DNA of 64,000 nucleotides from an uncultured Collinsella sp. (GCA_959602645.1 CAUGTZ010000008.1:3149-67148); one strand, 5' to 3'; positions 2,581 through 56,632 are shown, numbered from the stretch's first letter. Notes: generated by a model from the sequence alone, not told the origin. Program-made: numbers and translations.

Positions 2581-2827
2581 CGCTGCTAGTCGAACAGTGC
2601 CATTTCAAAACTATGCCGGTTTACTACCGTAAAACCGATAGGACCGACCACATTTGCTATTAGCAGAAAATGGCAAGCTTTCTACCTGCGGCTTTGATAA
2701 CGCTGTTCTTTCCATAGTTGAAAGAATACGATTCATCGTAGTAAACCGGCATAGTTTTGTAACCGACGGGTCGAGTCGGCACCGCAACAAACCTAATAAC
2801 CCGTTTTCTTCCATCCTCAAAGGATCA
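2581..2827 (-). repeat. family-B structured element, copy 1 (about 247 bp)
   Basis: Perfect 22-bp inverted repeat 2606-2627/2738-2759 around 110 nt; collinear with copy 2 at 21071-21317, with the same offsets for arms, core TCTACCTGCGG (2681-2691) and 27-nt end block (2801-2827). Confidence 0.75.
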
Positions 2828-8258: not shown

Positions 8259-8408
8259 CCGTTTGTCTCGATCTGTAACATCTAGCCGAGTTTTTTGGTC
8301 CTAGCTGTTACAGATTGAGACGAACAGGATTGCTCTTTCCGAAGAATCTAAATCTGTAACACGTAGCCCGCTTTTGACCGTCTACCTGTTACAAATCGAG
8401 ACAAACGG
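8259..8408. repeat. family-A compound palindromic element, copy 1
   Basis: Four about 20-bp units (CCGTTTGTCTCGATCTGTAACA type) in alternating orientation at 8259-8280, 8306-8328, 8345-8361 and 8387-8408; two 25-nt loops. Confidence 0.85.
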
Positions 8409-21070: not shown

Positions 21071-21317
21071 CGCTGTGACTGTATGAGTGACATATCAAAA
21101 CTATGCCCATTTACTACGTTTAGCCCAGGATGCTCGACCATGCACCGGTTTTTGTTAAATTCGCGAGCCGTCTACCTGCGGTTTTGTTTTACCCAAATTC
21201 GACATGCTCGGCGATAGCCGATCAAACGTAGTAAACGGACATAGTTTTTGACAGGCGGCATCGCCGCGTCCCTCGCAAGGGCAAAATGATCCGTTTTCCT
21301 CCGTCCCCAAGGGATCA
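21071..21317 (-). repeat. family-B structured element, copy 2 (about 247 bp)
   Basis: 25-bp arms at 21097-21121/21224-21248; the two arm mismatches are G-U pairs only on the minus-strand transcript; core TCTACCTGCGG at 21171-21181; the end block abuts the stop of the EIIB-like gene. Confidence 0.75.
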
Positions 21318-21797
21318 GTTGAACAGATTGCCGATGGGGTCGGGGGCGGAACTGGGGAGATAGCGGATTTCTAGCTCTATGCCGAGCGCCTGCAGTTCTT
21401 TGAGGGCAGCAACGTCTGCGTCGCTCACGGCAACCGCGGGCGTTATGGGGCGCTTGCCCTCCCCTGCCTGCATATGGCCAATGTTGATTTTGGTGATCGG
21501 CACACCGCCCTTAACCAGCGCGAGCGCATCGGCGGGTGAGGCCACCATGATGAGAATCCATTGGCGCGGCGTTGCGGTATGAATGATGTCGATGGTCCTT
21601 TGCACCGAGAAAAACCGCGTCCAAACGCCTTCTGGCGCCGCCACCCTCATGGGTGCCCATTGGCGCGAATCCGCCGCGATCTCATCGTTGACGATTAGGA
21701 CAAGGTTGGAACCCACGGCTTCGTTCCACAGCTCAACGTCTTGCCCGTAAATGAAACGGTCGTCGATACGCGTGAGAAGAATCTTGGGTTGAGCCAT
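21315..21797 (-). CDS. orphan PTS mannose-family EIIB paralog with Tyr in place of the phospho-His
   Basis: 160 aa; aligns end to end with the EIIB at 31065-31547, but the RLVHGQV motif reads RFIYGQD (TAC codon). Confidence 0.75.
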   Translation of the reverse strand: MAQPKILLTRIDDRFIYGQDVELWNEAVGSNLVLIVNDEIAADSRQWAPMRVAAPEGVWTRFFSVQRTIDIIHTATPRQWILIMVASPADALALVKGGVPITKINIGHMQAGEGKRPITPAVAVSDADVAALKELQALGIELEIRYLPSSAPDPIGNLFN

Positions 21798-21954
21798 GGC
21801 TGCCCCATTCTGTTTGAGACCCATACGAGCGGGACATCACGTCTCCAATATTAGTGCATTTAAAGTGAGAAAAGCCGTCAGAACCCTTGCGCGGATGTGC
21901 GATGTCCCGTATCATAGACAGCCGTTGACGCCTCAGTTGCGTCACCACATGGCC

Positions 21955-22030
21955 GCCAGCGTAGCTCAGTTGGTAGAGCACCGCTCTCGTAAAGCGGGGG
22001 TCACCGGTTCGAGCCCGGTCGCTGGCTCCA
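21955..22030 (+). tRNA. tRNA-Thr (anticodon CGU) with encoded CCA
   Basis: Cloverleaf read by hand: acceptor GCCAGCG/CGCTGGC, D arm GCTCAGTTGGTAGAGC, anticodon stem CCGCT/AGCGG with loop CTCGTAA, T arm ACCGGTTCGAGCCCGGT, then TCCA. Confidence 0.9.
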
Positions 22031-22041
22031 TTGCACAAGAT

Positions 22042-22066
22042 AGCCGCCTTCGGGCGGCTTTTTTGT
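22042..22066 (+). terminator. intrinsic terminator after tRNA-Thr
   Basis: AGCCGCC-ttcg-GGCGGCT followed by TTTTTTG. Confidence 0.75.
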
Positions 22067-31865: not shown

Positions 31866-32308
31866 TAGATGCCGTCCTCGTCGCCGAAGATATCCTCTTC
31901 CTCGGAGCCGGCAACGGATGCGACCGTCTGGGCGGTGACGCCCGTCTGGCCAACGGTCACGGCCTGCTCGCCAAGCTCGGCGAGCGTGGCATTGCCGCGG
32001 AGGAACAGAAGCTCAATAACCATGGGAAGGTTGGTGCCAGTCAGAACCTCGACGTTGTCGACATCCTGGGCAATCATCATCGACTGGTTGAACGGGGTGC
32101 CGCCAAGCAGGTCGGTAAAGACGAGCACGCCATCGCACTCCTCGCGCATGGCGGTAATAGCGGCGCGGAGATCCTCACCGTAGGAAGCAGCCTGGTCGCC
32201 CTCAAAAGGAACGACGGTAAAAGCGGGCTGGTCGCCGGCAACCATAGCGATAGCGCTAGCTAGGCCGGGTGCGAACTGTCCATGACCGGTAAGAATAAAG
32301 CCAACCAT
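31865..32308 (-). CDS. PTS mannose/GalNAc-family EIIA component
   Basis: 147-aa ORF; MVGFILTGHGQFAPG with the phospho-His; TDLLGGTPFN. Confidence 0.85.
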   Translation of the reverse strand: MVGFILTGHGQFAPGLASAIAMVAGDQPAFTVVPFEGDQAASYGEDLRAAITAMREECDGVLVFTDLLGGTPFNQSMMIAQDVDNVEVLTGTNLPMVIELLFLRGNATLAELGEQAVTVGQTGVTAQTVASVAGSEEEDIFGDEDGI

Positions 32309-32411
32309 TCAAATTTCCCTTCCGAAGGTGTGTACAATCTGAGTCCGATGATTTTCGGAAGCCAGCGGGCGCTCGCCCTTAAAGCTTCTTAGAAAGCGTT
32401 CTTTGAAGACC

Positions 32412-32439
32412 AGTGGTTTCTAAACTGGTAGTAACCACG
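32412..32439. promoter_or_regulatory. GntR/HutC-type operator upstream of the PTS operon
   Basis: AGTGGTTTCTAAACTGGTAGTAACCACG, containing the 13-mer shared with 28132-28144. Confidence 0.55.
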
Positions 32440-32511
32440 TGACGTGTTGTTGTCACTATATCACCCCAGAAGAGGTCGCTTTCGTTGATTCATACGGTAA
32501 AACGTTTTTGC

Positions 32512-32542
32512 ACCGTTCACGGTGATAAATCGACCGTTTACC
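32512..32542 (+). promoter_or_regulatory. phased direct repeat (ACCGTTCACGG ... ACCGTTTACC, 21-bp register)
   Basis: Units start at 32512 and 32533, with an AT-rich spacer TGATAAATCG; followed at 32555-32566 by TTCTACCTGCGG, the family-B core. Confidence 0.5.
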
Positions 32543-32686
32543 GCTCGTTAATACTTCTACCTGCGGATTTGAAACCGTTTCGAAATGCTTTGGCAAAAGA
32601 TCGGAACTTTTTTTGTGTCTAAACAACGCAGGGCGGCTAAAAATAGCGTGTTGAAAAATTGCAGGTCATTGTGAAGATATGTGAAT

Positions 32687-32721
32687 TGGTCTTTTTGACT
32701 TAATACCAGTTAGAACCAGTT
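32687..32721. promoter_or_regulatory. third GntR-type site, inverted orientation
   Basis: The reverse complement TGGTTCTAACTGGTATTAAG parallels TGGTTTCTAAACTGGTAGTAAC at 32414-32435. Confidence 0.4.
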
Positions 32722-32732
32722 TTGAGATTATC

Positions 32733-32760
32733 GGTGAACGGTAGTTTTCGACCGTTCACC
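32733..32760. promoter_or_regulatory. inverted pair of the ACCGTTCACC motif
   Basis: GGTGAACGGT-N8-ACCGTTCACC, a perfect 10-bp inverted repeat. Confidence 0.45.
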
Positions 32761-33012
32761 GGTTACTTGTAATCGTTTGCAGTCGTTTTCCCAGATGAAT
32801 TAGGGAAACACAATGGAGCGCTTGCGCGATCACGGGAAGTTTTGACATTTGTCCTCATCCCCCGCGCGCCGAACTCCGACACCCAAAACGAGCTAATAGT
32901 TCATGCTAATCGTTTTCAATCATTACTTAGTCAGTATCCCTAATTATTTATCGTTTGTCATTAATTATGATATAAGATACAAGTATCATCCAAGAGATTG
33001 GTTGGAGGGGCT

Positions 33013-33651
33013 ATGATCCGTCGGAACGTATCCGCATCGAATGAAGCCATCGGTCGCGAACAGACAATAGCCGAGCTGAGGAGGCTCACCCGCATCTGCA
33101 AATGGGCCACAATCTGCGCCACTGCGGCACTCGCTCTGGGACTCTTCGCAGTCATTGCAATCGACCTTCTACTCATATTGCCCAGTCTCTCCCAAGGATT
33201 CTGTCTCCAATCCGTAGAACTTCAAGCCGGCGAAGGACCGTGCCTCGCTCTCGTCGGTGCCAATGCACAGACCCCACTTATGCTCATCGCGCACGACGGT
33301 CACACCGCCATGGGGAGCGTCATGATGACATTCCTCGCGCTCGCTATCGCACTGAGCGCATACAAGCTTTTCTCCATCATTGAAAAGGCGGGCAGGCCCT
33401 TTGACCTTGAATGCAGCCGTATGCTACATCGAGTTGGGCTTTTGTTCCTTATCGGCGGCGCTGCCGTGAGACTCCTTGGTGCCATAGTCACGGGATTGAT
33501 GCTTTCAGGATTTGGCGGCAGCTTTACAGATGCCTTCGGCGGCCAGCTGTTCGAGCCCTCTATGCTCTTTGCAGGCCTGATTATTATCCTGATTGCCAGC
33601 ATCTTCCGCTACGGGTGTATCCTGCAAAAACAAGATGACGAGTTGCTCTAG
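33013..33651 (+). CDS. DUF2975-like membrane protein
   Basis: 212 aa from ATG 33013 (GGAGGGG RBS); four hydrophobic spans; precedes a YozG-type HTH gene, a commonly seen pairing. Confidence 0.6.
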   Translation: MIRRNVSASNEAIGREQTIAELRRLTRICKWATICATAALALGLFAVIAIDLLLILPSLSQGFCLQSVELQAGEGPCLALVGANAQTPLMLIAHDGHTAMGSVMMTFLALAIALSAYKLFSIIEKAGRPFDLECSRMLHRVGLLFLIGGAAVRLLGAIVTGLMLSGFGGSFTDAFGGQLFEPSMLFAGLIIILIASIFRYGCILQKQDDELL

Positions 33652-33660
33652 GGGGAATCC

Positions 33661-33900
33661 ATGATCATTCTGCGGCTCGACCGCATGCTCGCCGAACGCA
33701 AGATCTCATCCAAAGAACTTGCGGAACGCGTGGGCATCTCCCAAGTCAATATGTCACGCATTAAGACGGGCAAGGTTTCTGCCATACGTTTTTCAACTCT
33801 TGACGCGATATGTCGGGCACTCGACTGCCAACCGGGCGATGTACTGGAATATATATCCGACGATGAAGCCGATAGCCTTTTTGGACTTAAAGATGAATAG
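33661..33900 (+). CDS. XRE/Cro-type helix-turn-helix regulator (YozG-like)
   Basis: 79-aa ORF; LDRMLAERKISSKELAERVGISQVNMSRIKTGKVSAIRFSTLDAICRALDCQPGD. Confidence 0.8.
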   Translation: MIILRLDRMLAERKISSKELAERVGISQVNMSRIKTGKVSAIRFSTLDAICRALDCQPGDVLEYISDDEADSLFGLKDE

Positions 33901-34014
33901 CCATAATTAAGCCGCCAATCACGCCCTCAACGCAAAAAGTCCGCCAGAACGACTTCCGTACTGGCAGACTTTCTGCTGTCTATCGGCTAGATGCTCGATG
34001 AGCCGTGCAACTCT

Positions 34015-41599: not shown

Positions 41600-42081
41600 G
41601 TCCACTACCCTGCCTTCTGTGTCGTATACGATCCGTGCCCTGCACGGAATATCGGGTTGTTCCCACCAGCTGACCTGGTATTTGACCCCACACTTGCGCA
41701 CCGGGGCGTTTGCTCGGGAGGCCGCAGCCACCTTCACGACTGGCCCGCTCGCCCGCGAGGCGGTATTGCCCCAAAGAAAGTAGAACGGACGGTGCGGCTT
41801 ACATCTAGGACGCGCCATGATCGCGCCGCGCGCACGCGGTCGCTTACGTGGATCCCTTTGACCGCGTCTGTCTTGGACTAGGACGGGCATTTCGTCCGTC
41901 CGCAACCACAGCCTGGTAGGAACGAAGCGCATTATAGCTAAGTTCAAGCTAAAGTTTAAGGTTAGGGGCGTCATTCGCATCGCGAGTACAGATTTCGCAG
42001 GTCGGAGTGGGCTATTCGTGCCCCTATGAAGCCCGAAGCTCCCCTGTGGGGAGCTCCGGGACACCCTTCTTAGGGTGCCGT

Positions 42082-56603: not shown

Positions 56604-56632
56604 TAGTCATTTAAGAACGTCCCCAATGACTA
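56604..56632 (+). repeat. family-C hairpin motif, copy 3
   Basis: Stem TAGTCATT/AATGACTA (unrelated to copies 1 and 2) encloses the loop TAAGAACGTCCCC. Confidence 0.6.

What the first reader, a model, noticed from the sequence alone, without database searches (positions are those of the whole stretch)
21071..21317. Family B: 247-bp collinear structured element with a 22-25-bp closing stem and strand-specific G-U pairs (candidate ncRNA or 3'-UTR structure)
Seen directly: 2581-2827 and 21071-21317 are collinear copies with identical internal offsets. Each has CGCTG at the left edge and arms starting 25 nt later (2606-2627/2738-2759 perfect; 21097-21121/21224-21248). The core TCTACCTGCGG sits 75 nt after the arm start in both copies. 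A conserved 27-nt block CCGTTTTC(T/C)TCC(A/G)TCC(T/C)CAA(A/G)GGATCA sits 41 nt after the right arm in both. The arm sequence differs between copies but pairing is kept. The two mismatches in copy 2 (C-A and A-C on the plus strand) become G-U and U-G on the minus-strand transcript. That is the sense strand of the PTS genes lying immediately upstream of each copy: lacF for copy 1 and the EIIB-like gene for copy 2, whose stop codon lies inside the conserved end block. Small ORFs in copy 1 (2611-2820 and 2654-2851) are not conserved in copy 2. The core also occurs at 32555-32566 (TTCTACCTGCGG) in the aga promoter region, and an 11-nt match CCGTCTACCTG lies in a family-A loop (8378-8388). Inference: a structured RNA transcribed with, or processed from, PTS mRNAs; a MITE is the alternative. 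I do not recognise it as a known RNA family.
Basis: partly seen in the sequence, partly recalled or inferred. Interest (0 to 1): 0.75.

Follow-up and report, generated by a model that had tools for sequence, protein, structure and literature searches.

The report
Collinsella palindromic intergenic repeat family
The 247-bp feature is real, but it is not an RNA tied to sugar-transport genes: it is one copy of a previously undescribed hairpin-shaped DNA repeat scattered between unrelated genes of the gut bacterium Collinsella, which is gained, lost, stacked in tandem and occasionally flipped.

Summary
Window 2581-2827 and 21071-21317 are collinear copies with 22-27-bp inverted arms, a shared central 16-mer and a shared end block.

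The interpretation mostly fails. Related sequences gave 356 copies at 253 Collinsella loci, in 43 subfamilies. Their neighbours are unrelated (argS-rho, pilus adhesin, RpiR/RecN-like, Sir2, Mur ligase and others), so there is no PTS link.

- **Structure:** only the arm stem is a consensus structure, on either strand.
- **Wobble pairs:** G.T and A.C mismatches are balanced, so nothing marks a transcribed strand.
- **Rfam:** no hit.
- **Sequence constraint:** the arms and TCTACCTGCGGTTTTG vary 2-4 times less than the rest at the same locus.
- **Dynamics:** the unit is absent or replaced in some strains, with no target-site duplication. It stacks head to tail every 220-260 bp.
- **Inversion:** at two loci the centre is flipped between collinear flanks, once just upstream of a 2114-aa pilus adhesin gene.

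Best reading (0.5): a non-autonomous modular palindromic repeat of the REP/BIME/BOX/MITE kind. Rivals are a family of invertible switches and a cis-acting RNA hairpin. No mobilising enzyme was found.

The parts
21071..21317 (-). Complete repeat unit, copy 2 (subfamily S03/c1). Read on the minus strand it runs: block, GC spacer, arm, centre, arm, tail.
   Evidence: Collinear with 2581-2827. Covariance model R1 scores 152 bits over 21092-21253. The same unit limits recur in head-to-tail arrays. The unit is replaced by another repeat in alleles L138-L140.
21282..21317 (-). 'Block' module: the mini-palindrome TGATCC..GGATCA with GGGGACG in its loop. Its first three bases (21315-21317) are the TGA stop codon of the IIB gene.
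   Evidence: The module occurs alone, after a stop codon and before a terminator, in L087 and L128. It lies on either side of the unit in other loci. It is related to a second small repeat type.
21251..21281 (-). GC-rich spacer 'X' with small hairpins, between the block and the arm.
   Evidence: Similar spacers occur in clusters c2, c4 and c5 and in the L045 array.
21224..21250 (.). Right inverted arm of copy 2.
21096..21121 (.). Left inverted arm of copy 2.
21171..21186 (+). Near-invariant central 16-mer TCTACCTGCGGTTTTG at the dyad of the palindrome.
   Evidence: Between-subfamily divergence is 0.06, against 0.41 for the centre as a whole (cols 34-133). Within-locus diversity is 0.01-0.03 against 0.06-0.2. 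In samples not selected through it, diversity is 0.037 and 0.085 against 0.106 and 0.209.
21135..21142 (.). Inner inverted motif CGACCATG, left half. Its partner is CATGCTCG at 21203-21210.
   Evidence: 86.8% of cells pair in 90 sequences. Across the 43 subfamilies the two halves are conserved mainly as sequence.
21203..21210 (.). Inner inverted motif, right half.
21071..21095 (-). Tail module 'M1' (CGCTG..GTGACATAT), next to one arm only.
   Evidence: Shared by clusters c1, c4, c5 and c6. In c2 it lies on the opposite side in reverse orientation.
2581..2827 (-). Complete repeat unit, copy 1 (subfamily S12/c4). Arms 2606-2627 and 2738-2759, core 2681-2696, block 2792-2827.
   Evidence: R1 scores 136.8 bits over 2602-2763. 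It lies between the lacF terminator and a 337-aa gene with no Pfam match.
32556..32571 (+). Isolated core-like 16-mer TCTACCTGCGGATTTG with no arms around it. Whether it belongs to the family is uncertain.
   Evidence: Neither the covariance model nor the HMM finds a unit there.

Best explanation
The feature is one copy of a Collinsella-specific, non-coding, modular palindromic repeat.

**Anatomy.** The heart is a unit of about 160 bp. It has two 25-30-bp inverted arms around a centre of about 105 bp. The centre carries an almost invariant 16-mer (TCTACCTGCGGTTTTG) at the dyad and a second inverted pair (CGACCAY/RTGGTCG). Three accessory modules bring it to the 247-250-bp repeat unit: a 36-bp mini-palindrome, GC hairpins and a 25-bp tail.

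**Shown.**
- The family is dispersed between unrelated genes.
- Whole units are gained, lost or swapped for other small repeats at intergenic hot spots, without target-site duplication.
- Units stack head to tail.
- Recombination between the arms has occasionally inverted the centre.
- The arms keep their complementarity while their sequence changes between subfamilies.
- The arms and the 16-mer are under sequence constraint in place.

**Inferred.**
- Spread works at the DNA level through the hairpin or the inverted arms, as in REP/REPIN/BIME, BOX or Correia-type elements. The enzyme was not found.
- The arms and the 16-mer are recognition sites for a trans-acting protein.
- Where a unit is read through from an upstream gene, as behind the IIB gene at 21315, the transcript would carry a 26-29-bp duplex. 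That duplex could affect 3'-end stability or processing. This would be a by-product, not the reason the family exists.
For: **Size and distribution.**
The metagenome scan was likewise all human-gut-type contigs.
- In total 356 copies were found at 253 loci, in 43 subfamilies.
- Neighbours are unrelated and mostly housekeeping, often convergent gene ends.

**Structure.**
- Only the arm stem is a consensus structure.
- The arms covary strongly across subfamilies. Many columns show 2-4 Watson-Crick pair types, and an orthologue shows compensatory changes.
- G.T and A.C mismatches are balanced.

**Constraint in place.** In samples not chosen through arm or core sequence, diversity was 0.04-0.08 for the arms and 0.04-0.09 for the core. 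The rest of the centre gave 0.11-0.21 and the sequence outside gave 0.17-0.30.

**Gain and loss.**
- The unit is replaced by a short unrelated repeat in IIB alleles L138-L140 and by an array of that repeat in L141.
- It is absent from the argS-rho spacer of relatives with 76-86% ArgRS identity.

**Arrays and inversion.**
- 90 neighbouring pairs are spaced 220-260 nt apart. Arrays are built from different subfamilies.
- The centre is inverted between collinear flanks at two loci and between paralogues.

**No target-site duplication** is seen at the arm ends.
Against: - No transposase, RAYT or recombinase was found next to any copy in about 2.1 Mb. That search used a TnpA sequence recalled from memory and Pfam scans of nearest neighbours only.
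- A purely selfish, immobile repeat would not keep its arms and core conserved at the same locus. Some host or element function therefore remains unexplained.
- Copies within one genome are only 55-75% alike, so there is no sign of recent bursts.
- No clean empty site was recovered. The junctions are replacements rather than simple insertions.
- Copy number per complete genome was not measured.
Confidence: 0.5

Rival explanations
1. The units are invertons: short DNA switches flipped by a trans-acting site-specific recombinase. The recombinase would bind the inverted arms, and the 16-mer would serve as an accessory site or as a directional signal such as a promoter or terminator. One unit would control the pilus adhesin operon, as fimS does for type 1 fimbriae or the Mpi-controlled promoters do in Bacteroides fragilis.
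For: - Arms of 25-30 bp flank a centre of constant length (139-143 bp between pattern ends).
- Arms and central motif are conserved while the rest varies.
- Many loci share the same arms.
- The centre is found in both orientations with collinear flanks at the locus about 230 bp upstream of a 2114-aa VWA/FctA adhesin gene. The same is seen at the unit on the far side of that operon.
- One paralogue is fixed in the opposite orientation.
- The only terminator-like hairpin in the centre is directional.
Against: - Only 2 of 36 locus groups, about 2 of 340 copies, differ in orientation among assemblies. Loci with 35-42 assemblies are monomorphic.
- Many units lie between convergent gene ends, where a switch has nothing to drive.
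- No sigma-70-like promoter is found in either orientation.
- No recombinase gene lies nearby.
- Tandem arrays and whole-unit loss are not inverton traits.
- Rare flips are expected from any perfect 29-bp inverted repeat.
Confidence: 0.2
2. The unit acts as RNA: a structured element in 3' UTRs or an independent small RNA. The long stem would be an RNase III or stability determinant, and the single-stranded 16-mer a protein-binding or base-pairing site.
For: - Copy 2 and several other units start at or just after a stop codon, with no terminator in between.
- Stem complementarity is kept through compensatory changes.
- The 16-mer is conserved.
- The predicted folds are more stable than shuffles.
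- Across subfamily consensus sequences there is a slight excess of A.C over G.T mismatches (144 vs 104, arms plus inner pair).
Against: - There is no consensus structure beyond the arm stem on either strand.
- At the sequence level G.T 85 vs A.C 75 shows no strand preference.
- Orientation relative to flanking genes is mixed. By my count, about 17 of 28 loci have a gene reading into the core-plus side. Two of seven units are antisense to both neighbours.
- Copy 1 follows a strong terminator.
- The centre can be inverted without loss of the locus.
- The unit is dispensable in some strains.
- No promoter or terminator frames the unit.
- No Rfam family matches.
Confidence: 0.15
3. It is a classical MITE: a deletion derivative of a DDE-transposase insertion sequence, with the arms as terminal inverted repeats, mobilised in trans by cut and paste.
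For: - It is short and non-coding, with 25-30-bp inverted repeats, many dispersed intergenic copies and presence/absence polymorphism.
- The subfamilies have distinct arm classes.
Against: - No target-site duplication flanks the arms at any locus examined.
- Conservation between paralogues extends beyond the arms into the tail and block modules, so the arms are not the termini.
- Copies in one genome are old and divergent.
- No partner element with these ends was seen in the 64-kb window and 127 loci then held, and no similar DNA in the plasmid or phage collections.
- Arms and core are constrained in place.
Confidence: 0.1

Closest known systems
REP / REPIN / BIME elements of proteobacteria (mobilised by RAYT, an IS200-like Y1 transposase)
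   Same: - They are extragenic.
- Two conserved inverted sequences surround a less conserved spacer and form a long hairpin.
- There is no target-site duplication.
- They occur in mosaic combination with other small motifs and in tandem arrays.
- They are often found at convergent gene ends.
- A CTAC/GTAG tetranucleotide lies in the arms of 33 of 43 subfamilies.
   Different: - Each arm is not itself a clear REP-type palindrome.
- The spacer carries an invariant 16-mer at fixed spacing.
- The unit is larger (160-250 bp).
- The host is an actinobacterium.
- No RAYT was found, although the search was weak.
- Copy number appears to be tens rather than hundreds.
Pneumococcal BOX and neisserial Correia elements (from my own knowledge of the literature)
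   Same: - They are modular, non-coding intergenic repeats whose ends pair into a stable stem-loop.
- They are co-transcribed with neighbouring genes.
- Correia elements have 26-bp inverted ends and a central protein-binding site.
   Different: - Correia elements duplicate a TA target and carry promoter elements. Neither is seen here.
- BOX varies by the number of its internal boxB modules, whereas here the centre has a constant length.
- There is no sequence similarity to either.
Invertons: fimS of E. coli and the Mpi-controlled invertible promoters of Bacteroides fragilis
   Same: - Short inverted repeats flank a segment of about 100-300 bp.
- A family of loci shares the repeats.
- Both orientations are seen at two loci, one of them upstream of a pilus adhesin gene.
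   Different: - Orientation is almost always fixed among assemblies.
- Most copies are not upstream of genes.
- No promoter and no recombinase were found.
- The units form tandem arrays and are lost or replaced whole.
Integron attC sites and attC clusters without an integrase
   Same: - They are imperfect palindromes whose structure rather than sequence is kept.
- They lie directly behind ORFs, sometimes overlapping the stop codon.
- They occur in arrays.
- Gene content between copies is variable. Here the adhesin operon lies between two direct B-type copies.
   Different: - The R''/R' core sites (RYYYAAC / GTTRRRY) are absent from the arm ends.
- The units are larger.
- No integron integrase context is present.
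- The flanking genes are housekeeping genes, not cassettes.

Membership tests
Classical MITE | Terminal inverted repeats that form the ends of the element | tested here: inconclusive
   Inverted arms of 25-30 bp are present. However, homology between paralogues continues outside them, into the tail M1 and the block and spacer.
Classical MITE | Target-site duplication flanking the element | tested here: not met
   No direct repeat adjoins the arms or the 247-bp unit in any of the locus groups inspected.
Classical MITE | An autonomous partner insertion sequence with the same ends | tested here: inconclusive
   The only unpaired arm-like sequences in the sequence then held were those of the diverged array members. 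The one transposase seen nearby was an IS3-type integrase core in a single locus. There is no similarity in the plasmid or phage collections. Complete genomes could not be scanned.
Classical MITE | Presence/absence polymorphism between related genomes | tested here: met
   The IIB-epimerase spacer is 325 nt with the unit and 84 nt without it. The argS-rho spacer shows the same kind of difference.
REP/REPIN-RAYT | Two inverted conserved repeats around a variable spacer, in extragenic positions | tested here: met
REP/REPIN-RAYT | Each repeat is an imperfect palindrome preceded by GTAG | tested here: inconclusive
   GTAG/CTAC is present in 33 of 43 subfamily arms. Reading the sequences, the arms show only weak internal dyad symmetry.
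REP/REPIN-RAYT | A RAYT (Y1 transposase) gene flanked by the repeats | tested here: inconclusive
   tblastn with an IS200 TnpA sequence recalled from memory found nothing better than E = 0.04 in 2.08 Mb. This was not a whole-genome test.
Inverton | The same locus is found in both orientations between fixed flanks | tested here: met
   L249 differs from L019, and L209 differs from ten other assemblies. This applies to only 2 of 36 locus groups.
Inverton | Mixed orientations within a clonal population, dependent on a recombinase | not testable with these tools
   This needs raw reads or experiments.
Inverton | A directional regulatory signal inside the invertible segment | tested here: inconclusive
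   No sigma-70-type promoter was found. One weak terminator-like hairpin lies on the core-plus strand.
Any Rfam 15 RNA family (including the HEARO and Collinsella-1 motifs, which I know by name from the literature) | A match to the family covariance model | tested here: not met
   The gathering scan of the window found only raiA and a tRNA. E-value scans of both copies and of a three-unit array found only chance-level hits, E >= 0.12. I did not confirm that the two named motifs are in the library copy searched.
Structured non-coding RNA (general) | Covariation supporting a structure beyond a simple hairpin, with a strand-specific tolerance of G-U pairs | tested here: not met
   RNAalifold returns only the arm stem on both strands. 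Mismatch counts are G.T 85 vs A.C 75 and 60 vs 86.
Integron attC | R''/R' core sites RYYYAAC and GTTRRRY at the ends of the palindrome | tested here: not met
   The arm ends read (T)CAAAAC / GTTTTG or GCCACGAAA / TTTCGTGGC.

The most novel reading that the evidence does not exclude
The family is a regulon of very short invertible DNA switches in an actinobacterial gut commensal. A trans-acting recombinase would recognise the 25-30-bp arms and the invariant 16-mer, flip the 105-bp centre, and so phase-vary the giant VWA/FctA pilus adhesin operon and other loci. The two orientation polymorphisms seen in assemblies would be the visible tip of this switching.
Probability: 0.15. Interest if true: 0.75.

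Novelty: new variant of a known kind. Interest (0 to 1): 0.45.

Why it matters
Collinsella aerofaciens and its relatives are among the most abundant actinobacteria of the human gut. I found no description of their intergenic repeats: two full-text searches returned nothing relevant, and Rfam has no match.

- **Genome plasticity.** The family marks hot spots where small repeats are exchanged, where gene 3' ends are rewritten (the last five codons of the PTS IIB gene differ with and without the unit), and where a 6.6-kb pilus adhesin operon is present or absent between two direct copies.
- **Strain typing.** The units give a ready marker for strain typing and for assembly breakpoints.
- **An unknown factor.** The invariant 16-mer and the constrained arms point to an unidentified protein that reads them.
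- **A possible switch.** If the rare inversions prove to be enzyme-driven, this would be a compact phase-variation system in a phylum where few are known.

Tried and rejected
- **PTS-specific 3'-UTR RNA.** Rejected on the neighbour survey.
- **Known RNA family.** Rejected.
- **Conserved small ORF.** From reading the alignment, the ATG in the inner motif is not conserved (CCATG in some subfamilies, CCACG in others).
- **Sigma-70 promoter in the centre.** Hand alignment of candidate -35/-10 boxes in both orientations gave no conserved final T in the -10 box, and the scans found none.
- **Central bidirectional terminator.** The hairpin AAAACCGCAGG-N7-CCTGCGGTTTT is perfect in only a few subfamilies (c3 and B-type). 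In the others only the right half is kept, so conservation is of sequence, not of pairing.
- **LacI- or DeoR-type operator.** A single arm is not a palindrome.
- **IHF site, integron attC, and the RepB nick site TACTACG(A/G)C of pMV158-type plasmids.** These are resemblances recalled from memory. Only short matches exist and none was pursued.
- **The 11-nt match in a family-A hairpin (8378-8388).** It is part of that hairpin's own stem, so I judge it coincidental.
- **Clean empty sites.** The argS-rho spacers of relatives were too diverged to align. The IIB locus showed a replacement rather than an excision.
- **Plasmid and phage collections.** No similarity. One 'viral' contig carries a copy, and its context was not examined.

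Full report
**1. The observation**

Window 2581-2827 and 21071-21317 align collinearly with 75% column identity and the same internal offsets. The arm pattern occurs only at the four arm positions, and the 27-nt end block only at the two unit ends. Shuffles expect 0.00 matches for both. The 16-mer core lies at 2681-2696 and 21171-21186, with one further one-mismatch match at 32556-32571.

The gene ending inside the block (21315-21824, minus strand) is a PTS sorbose-family IIB component. It converges on an aldose 1-epimerase gene. Copy 1 lies between the terminator of a lactose/cellobiose IIA gene and a 337-aa gene with no Pfam match. Both copies fold better than shuffled sequence on both strands.

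**2. Where else it occurs**

Every listed title was Collinsella, Coriobacteriaceae or an unnamed uncultured bacterium. The 130 instances then held fell into seven locus groups. Their neighbours are unrelated:

| Group | Flanking genes |
|---|---|
| c0 | argS and rho |
| c1 | epimerase and IIB (window copy 2) |
| c2 | FctA pilin and LuxR-type regulator |
| c3 | RpiR and RecN-like |
| c4 | 337-aa gene and lacF (window copy 1) |
| c5 | VWA/FctA adhesin and hydrogenase subunit |
| c6 | formate-tetrahydrofolate ligase and a zinc-ribbon protein |

A second scan of metagenomes was keyed on one arm motif plus the core.

An HMM search of all held DNA (about 2.1 Mb) gave 356 copies at 253 loci. At 88% identity these form 43 subfamilies. 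Further neighbours include Sir2, DUF6580, an exo/endonuclease-phosphatase, glycerate kinase, a GntR regulator, peptidase M24, Mur ligase, Tex and SelB. There is no association with PTS genes.

By my count, convergent gene ends are common (about 10 of 28 loci). Divergent, promoter-type spacers are rare (about 3 of 28).

**3. Anatomy**

The conserved heart is about 160 bp: arm, about 105 bp, arm. There are two arm classes:
- CAAAACTATGCCGG(T/A)TTAC followed by TACGAT or GGGGCT;
- GCCACGAAA-N4-6-GGCC(C/T)ATCTACTACGTTT.

The length between the arm pattern ends is 139-143 bp in all 130 first instances. Arms and the inner pair CGACCAY/RTGGTCG are symmetric about a point that falls in TCTACCTGCGGTTTTG (columns).

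Outside the arms three further modules recur:
- A 25-nt tail (GCTG...GCCATTT) lies on one side.
- GC-rich hairpins lie on the other side.

The block is separable. It lies on the right in c1 and c4, on the left in c5, and reversed on the left in c2 and c6. It also occurs alone, between a stop codon and a terminator. It resembles a second small palindromic repeat with the same GGGGACG loop.

In tandem arrays the period is 220-260 nt (90 neighbour pairs).

**4. Is it a structured RNA?**

RNAalifold on 90 unique sequences, and on the 43 subfamily consensus sequences on both strands, returns only the arm stem.

The stem itself is well supported as a pairing:
- 94% of arm cells pair in the 90 sequences.
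- Across subfamilies many columns show two to four Watson-Crick types, for example A-T 22 / C-G 18 and T-A 21 / G-C 14 / C-G 2.
- A diverged orthologue of copy 2 (IIB 89% identical) has two compensatory double changes in the arms.

Complementary arms are equally expected of a DNA palindrome, so this does not identify an RNA. The test that separates RNA from DNA is wobble bias, and it is negative:
- G.T 85 vs A.C 75 in arm cells of the 90 sequences.
- 60 vs 86 in arms and 44 vs 58 in the inner pair across subfamily consensus sequences.

The slight excess in the second comparison sits mainly at helix ends and among related rows.

Most orthologues have a perfect arm. Uncompensated mismatches are frequent in the copies found only through their position next to other copies. 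Rfam has nothing at any threshold. No promoter or terminator frames the unit.

**5. Constraint**

The first sample was selected through the arms, so arm conservation there is biased. Two sets were found only by adjacency: A-type (n = 10) and B-type (n = 21-22). They give an unbiased reading of mean pairwise diversity:

| Region | A-type | B-type |
|---|---|---|
| Left arm | 0.049 | 0.055 |
| Right arm | 0.038 | 0.077 |
| 16-mer core | 0.037 | 0.085 |
| Rest of centre | 0.106 | 0.209 |
| Outside the unit | 0.174 | 0.302 |

In the first sample the core was not part of the search pattern. Its diversity there is 0.00-0.03, against 0.02-0.21 for the centre. Its divergence between subfamilies is 0.06 against 0.41.

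Arms and core are therefore constrained as sequence at the same locus. A dead selfish repeat would not show that.

**6. Dynamics**

*(a) Gain, loss and replacement.* IIB alleles ending ...PDPIQLVI (168 aa, common) have an 84-nt spacer to the epimerase gene. It holds a fragment of the other small repeat where the 247-bp unit would be. Another allele has an array of that repeat. The sequences part inside the last five codons of IIB, so the unit or its replacement supplies the C-terminus and the stop codon. There is no duplicated flank. More distant IIB lineages (87-89% identity) keep the unit, so the unit-free allele is probably secondary. In the argS-rho spacer the unit is present at 90-99% ArgRS identity and undetectable at 76-86%.

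*(b) Arrays.* The spacer next to the LuxR regulator holds two or three units of different subfamilies, head to tail.

*(c) Adhesin genes between copies.* In L240, a 326-aa FctA protein and a 1599-aa VWA/FctA adhesin lie between two direct B-type copies. L255 has the same copy layout, though its genes were not annotated. In other genomes the three units are contiguous with nothing between them.

*(d) Inversion.* My first test found none in 130 instances. The enlarged set shows two clear cases with collinear flanks and a reverse-complemented centre:
- The unit about 230 bp upstream of a 2114-aa adhesin gene: L249 against L019 and eight others.
- The unit beside the regulator gene: L209 against ten others.

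In addition, the common allele at that second locus is fixed in the opposite orientation to all other paralogues relative to the tail and block modules. Overall 2 of 36 locus groups are polymorphic.

**7. Search for a partner**

- Apart from four arm-like matches next to the c2 units, later identified as the arms of diverged array members, no unpaired arm was found in the sequence held at that stage.
- There is no similarity in the plasmid or phage collections.
- An IS200-type TnpA query, recalled from memory, found no homologue in 2.08 Mb.
- The only transposase seen beside a copy is an IS3-type integrase core in a single locus.
- Two literature searches found nothing on Collinsella invertons or MITEs.

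**8. Interpretation**

The weight of evidence places the feature among dispersed, modular, hairpin-forming intergenic repeats (REP/REPIN/BIME, BOX, Correia). The supporting traits are many loci, unrelated neighbours, a preference for gene ends, mosaic association with other small repeats, tandem arrays, whole-unit gain and loss, no coding capacity, and pairing arms.

It departs from a plain MITE: there is no target-site duplication and homology continues beyond the arms. It departs from REPINs: the arms are not REP-like palindromes and no RAYT was found.

I commit to a DNA-level repeat whose arms and 16-mer are read by an unidentified protein, at 0.5 confidence. Dispersal, modularity, turnover, inversion and constraint are shown. 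The mode of spread and the existence of the binding protein are inferred.

The inverton reading (0.2) explains the constraint pattern and the two flips, one at a pilus adhesin gene. It fits poorly with fixed orientations, convergent-gene contexts and arrays. The RNA reading (0.15) keeps the 3'-UTR position of copy 2 and the stem, but has no positive evidence of its own.

**9. Limits**

Taxonomic range and copy number per genome are therefore not established.
- Subfamily consensus sequences are not independent, so the covariation counts overstate the number of events.
- Flanking ORFs were called by length in a GC-rich genome.
- No expression or read-level data were available.

Noticed in passing
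Three pairs of ~70-nt hairpins (ATCTGTAACA...TGTTACAGAT) sit about 80 nt apart. Each pair follows one of three paralogous repeat segments; related loci carry PTS EIIC/IIB and GH1 6-phospho-beta-glucosidase genes at the matching position. No Rfam hit at gathering threshold.
   Followed up: no
window 41661-41921 (-): A full-length raiA RNA motif (RF03072), scoring 149.5 bits against a gathering score of 101.3.
   Followed up: no
window 21955-22027 (+): A tRNA gene with its own terminator (22042-22059) lies just upstream of the solitary PTS IIB-sorbose gene. In related genomes this spacer varies: two ORFs of 121 and 169 aa with no Pfam hit on record, a DUF5067 gene, or nothing.
   Followed up: partly
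window 56613-56630 and 2840-2880; L087:300-420; L128:2340-2440; L141:3010-3200: A second family of small palindromic repeats (GACTAGTC...GGGGACGTTCTT...AAGAACGTCCCCAATGACTA). It shares the GGGGACG loop with the 'block' module. It forms arrays and can replace the 247-bp unit behind the IIB gene.
   Followed up: partly
L240:978-7959; L255:1282-8328; compare L045:3533-4205: In L240, genes for a 326-aa FctA protein and a 1599-aa VWA/FctA adhesin lie in a ~6.6-kb stretch between two direct B-type repeat copies. L255 has the same copy layout but its genes were not annotated. In genomes such as L045 the three units are contiguous with nothing between them. This looks like gain or loss by recombination between repeat copies.
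   Followed up: partly
window 32380-32760: An AT-rich spacer (GC about 0.50 over 32001-34000) with several palindromes, such as CACCGTTCACGGTG and GGTGAACGGTAG...CGACCGTTCACC. It also holds an isolated core-like 16-mer, TCTACCTGCGGATTTG, at 32556-32571.
   Followed up: partly
L001:9061-9622 and equivalents: A ParE-toxin gene and a small adjacent ORF (88 aa, no Pfam hit on record) lie between the DeoR regulator and a GH1 gene in most related loci. The equivalent window region was not annotated.
   Followed up: no
L198:38-706: An IS3-type integrase core (rve) lies about 90 nt upstream of the first of two tandem units that precede the rho gene in one metagenome contig. This is the only transposase seen beside any copy.
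   Followed up: no
L129:2019-2175: One copy of the repeat lies on an IMG/VR 'viral' contig. Its context was not examined, and it may be a Collinsella prophage or a misbinned fragment.
   Followed up: no
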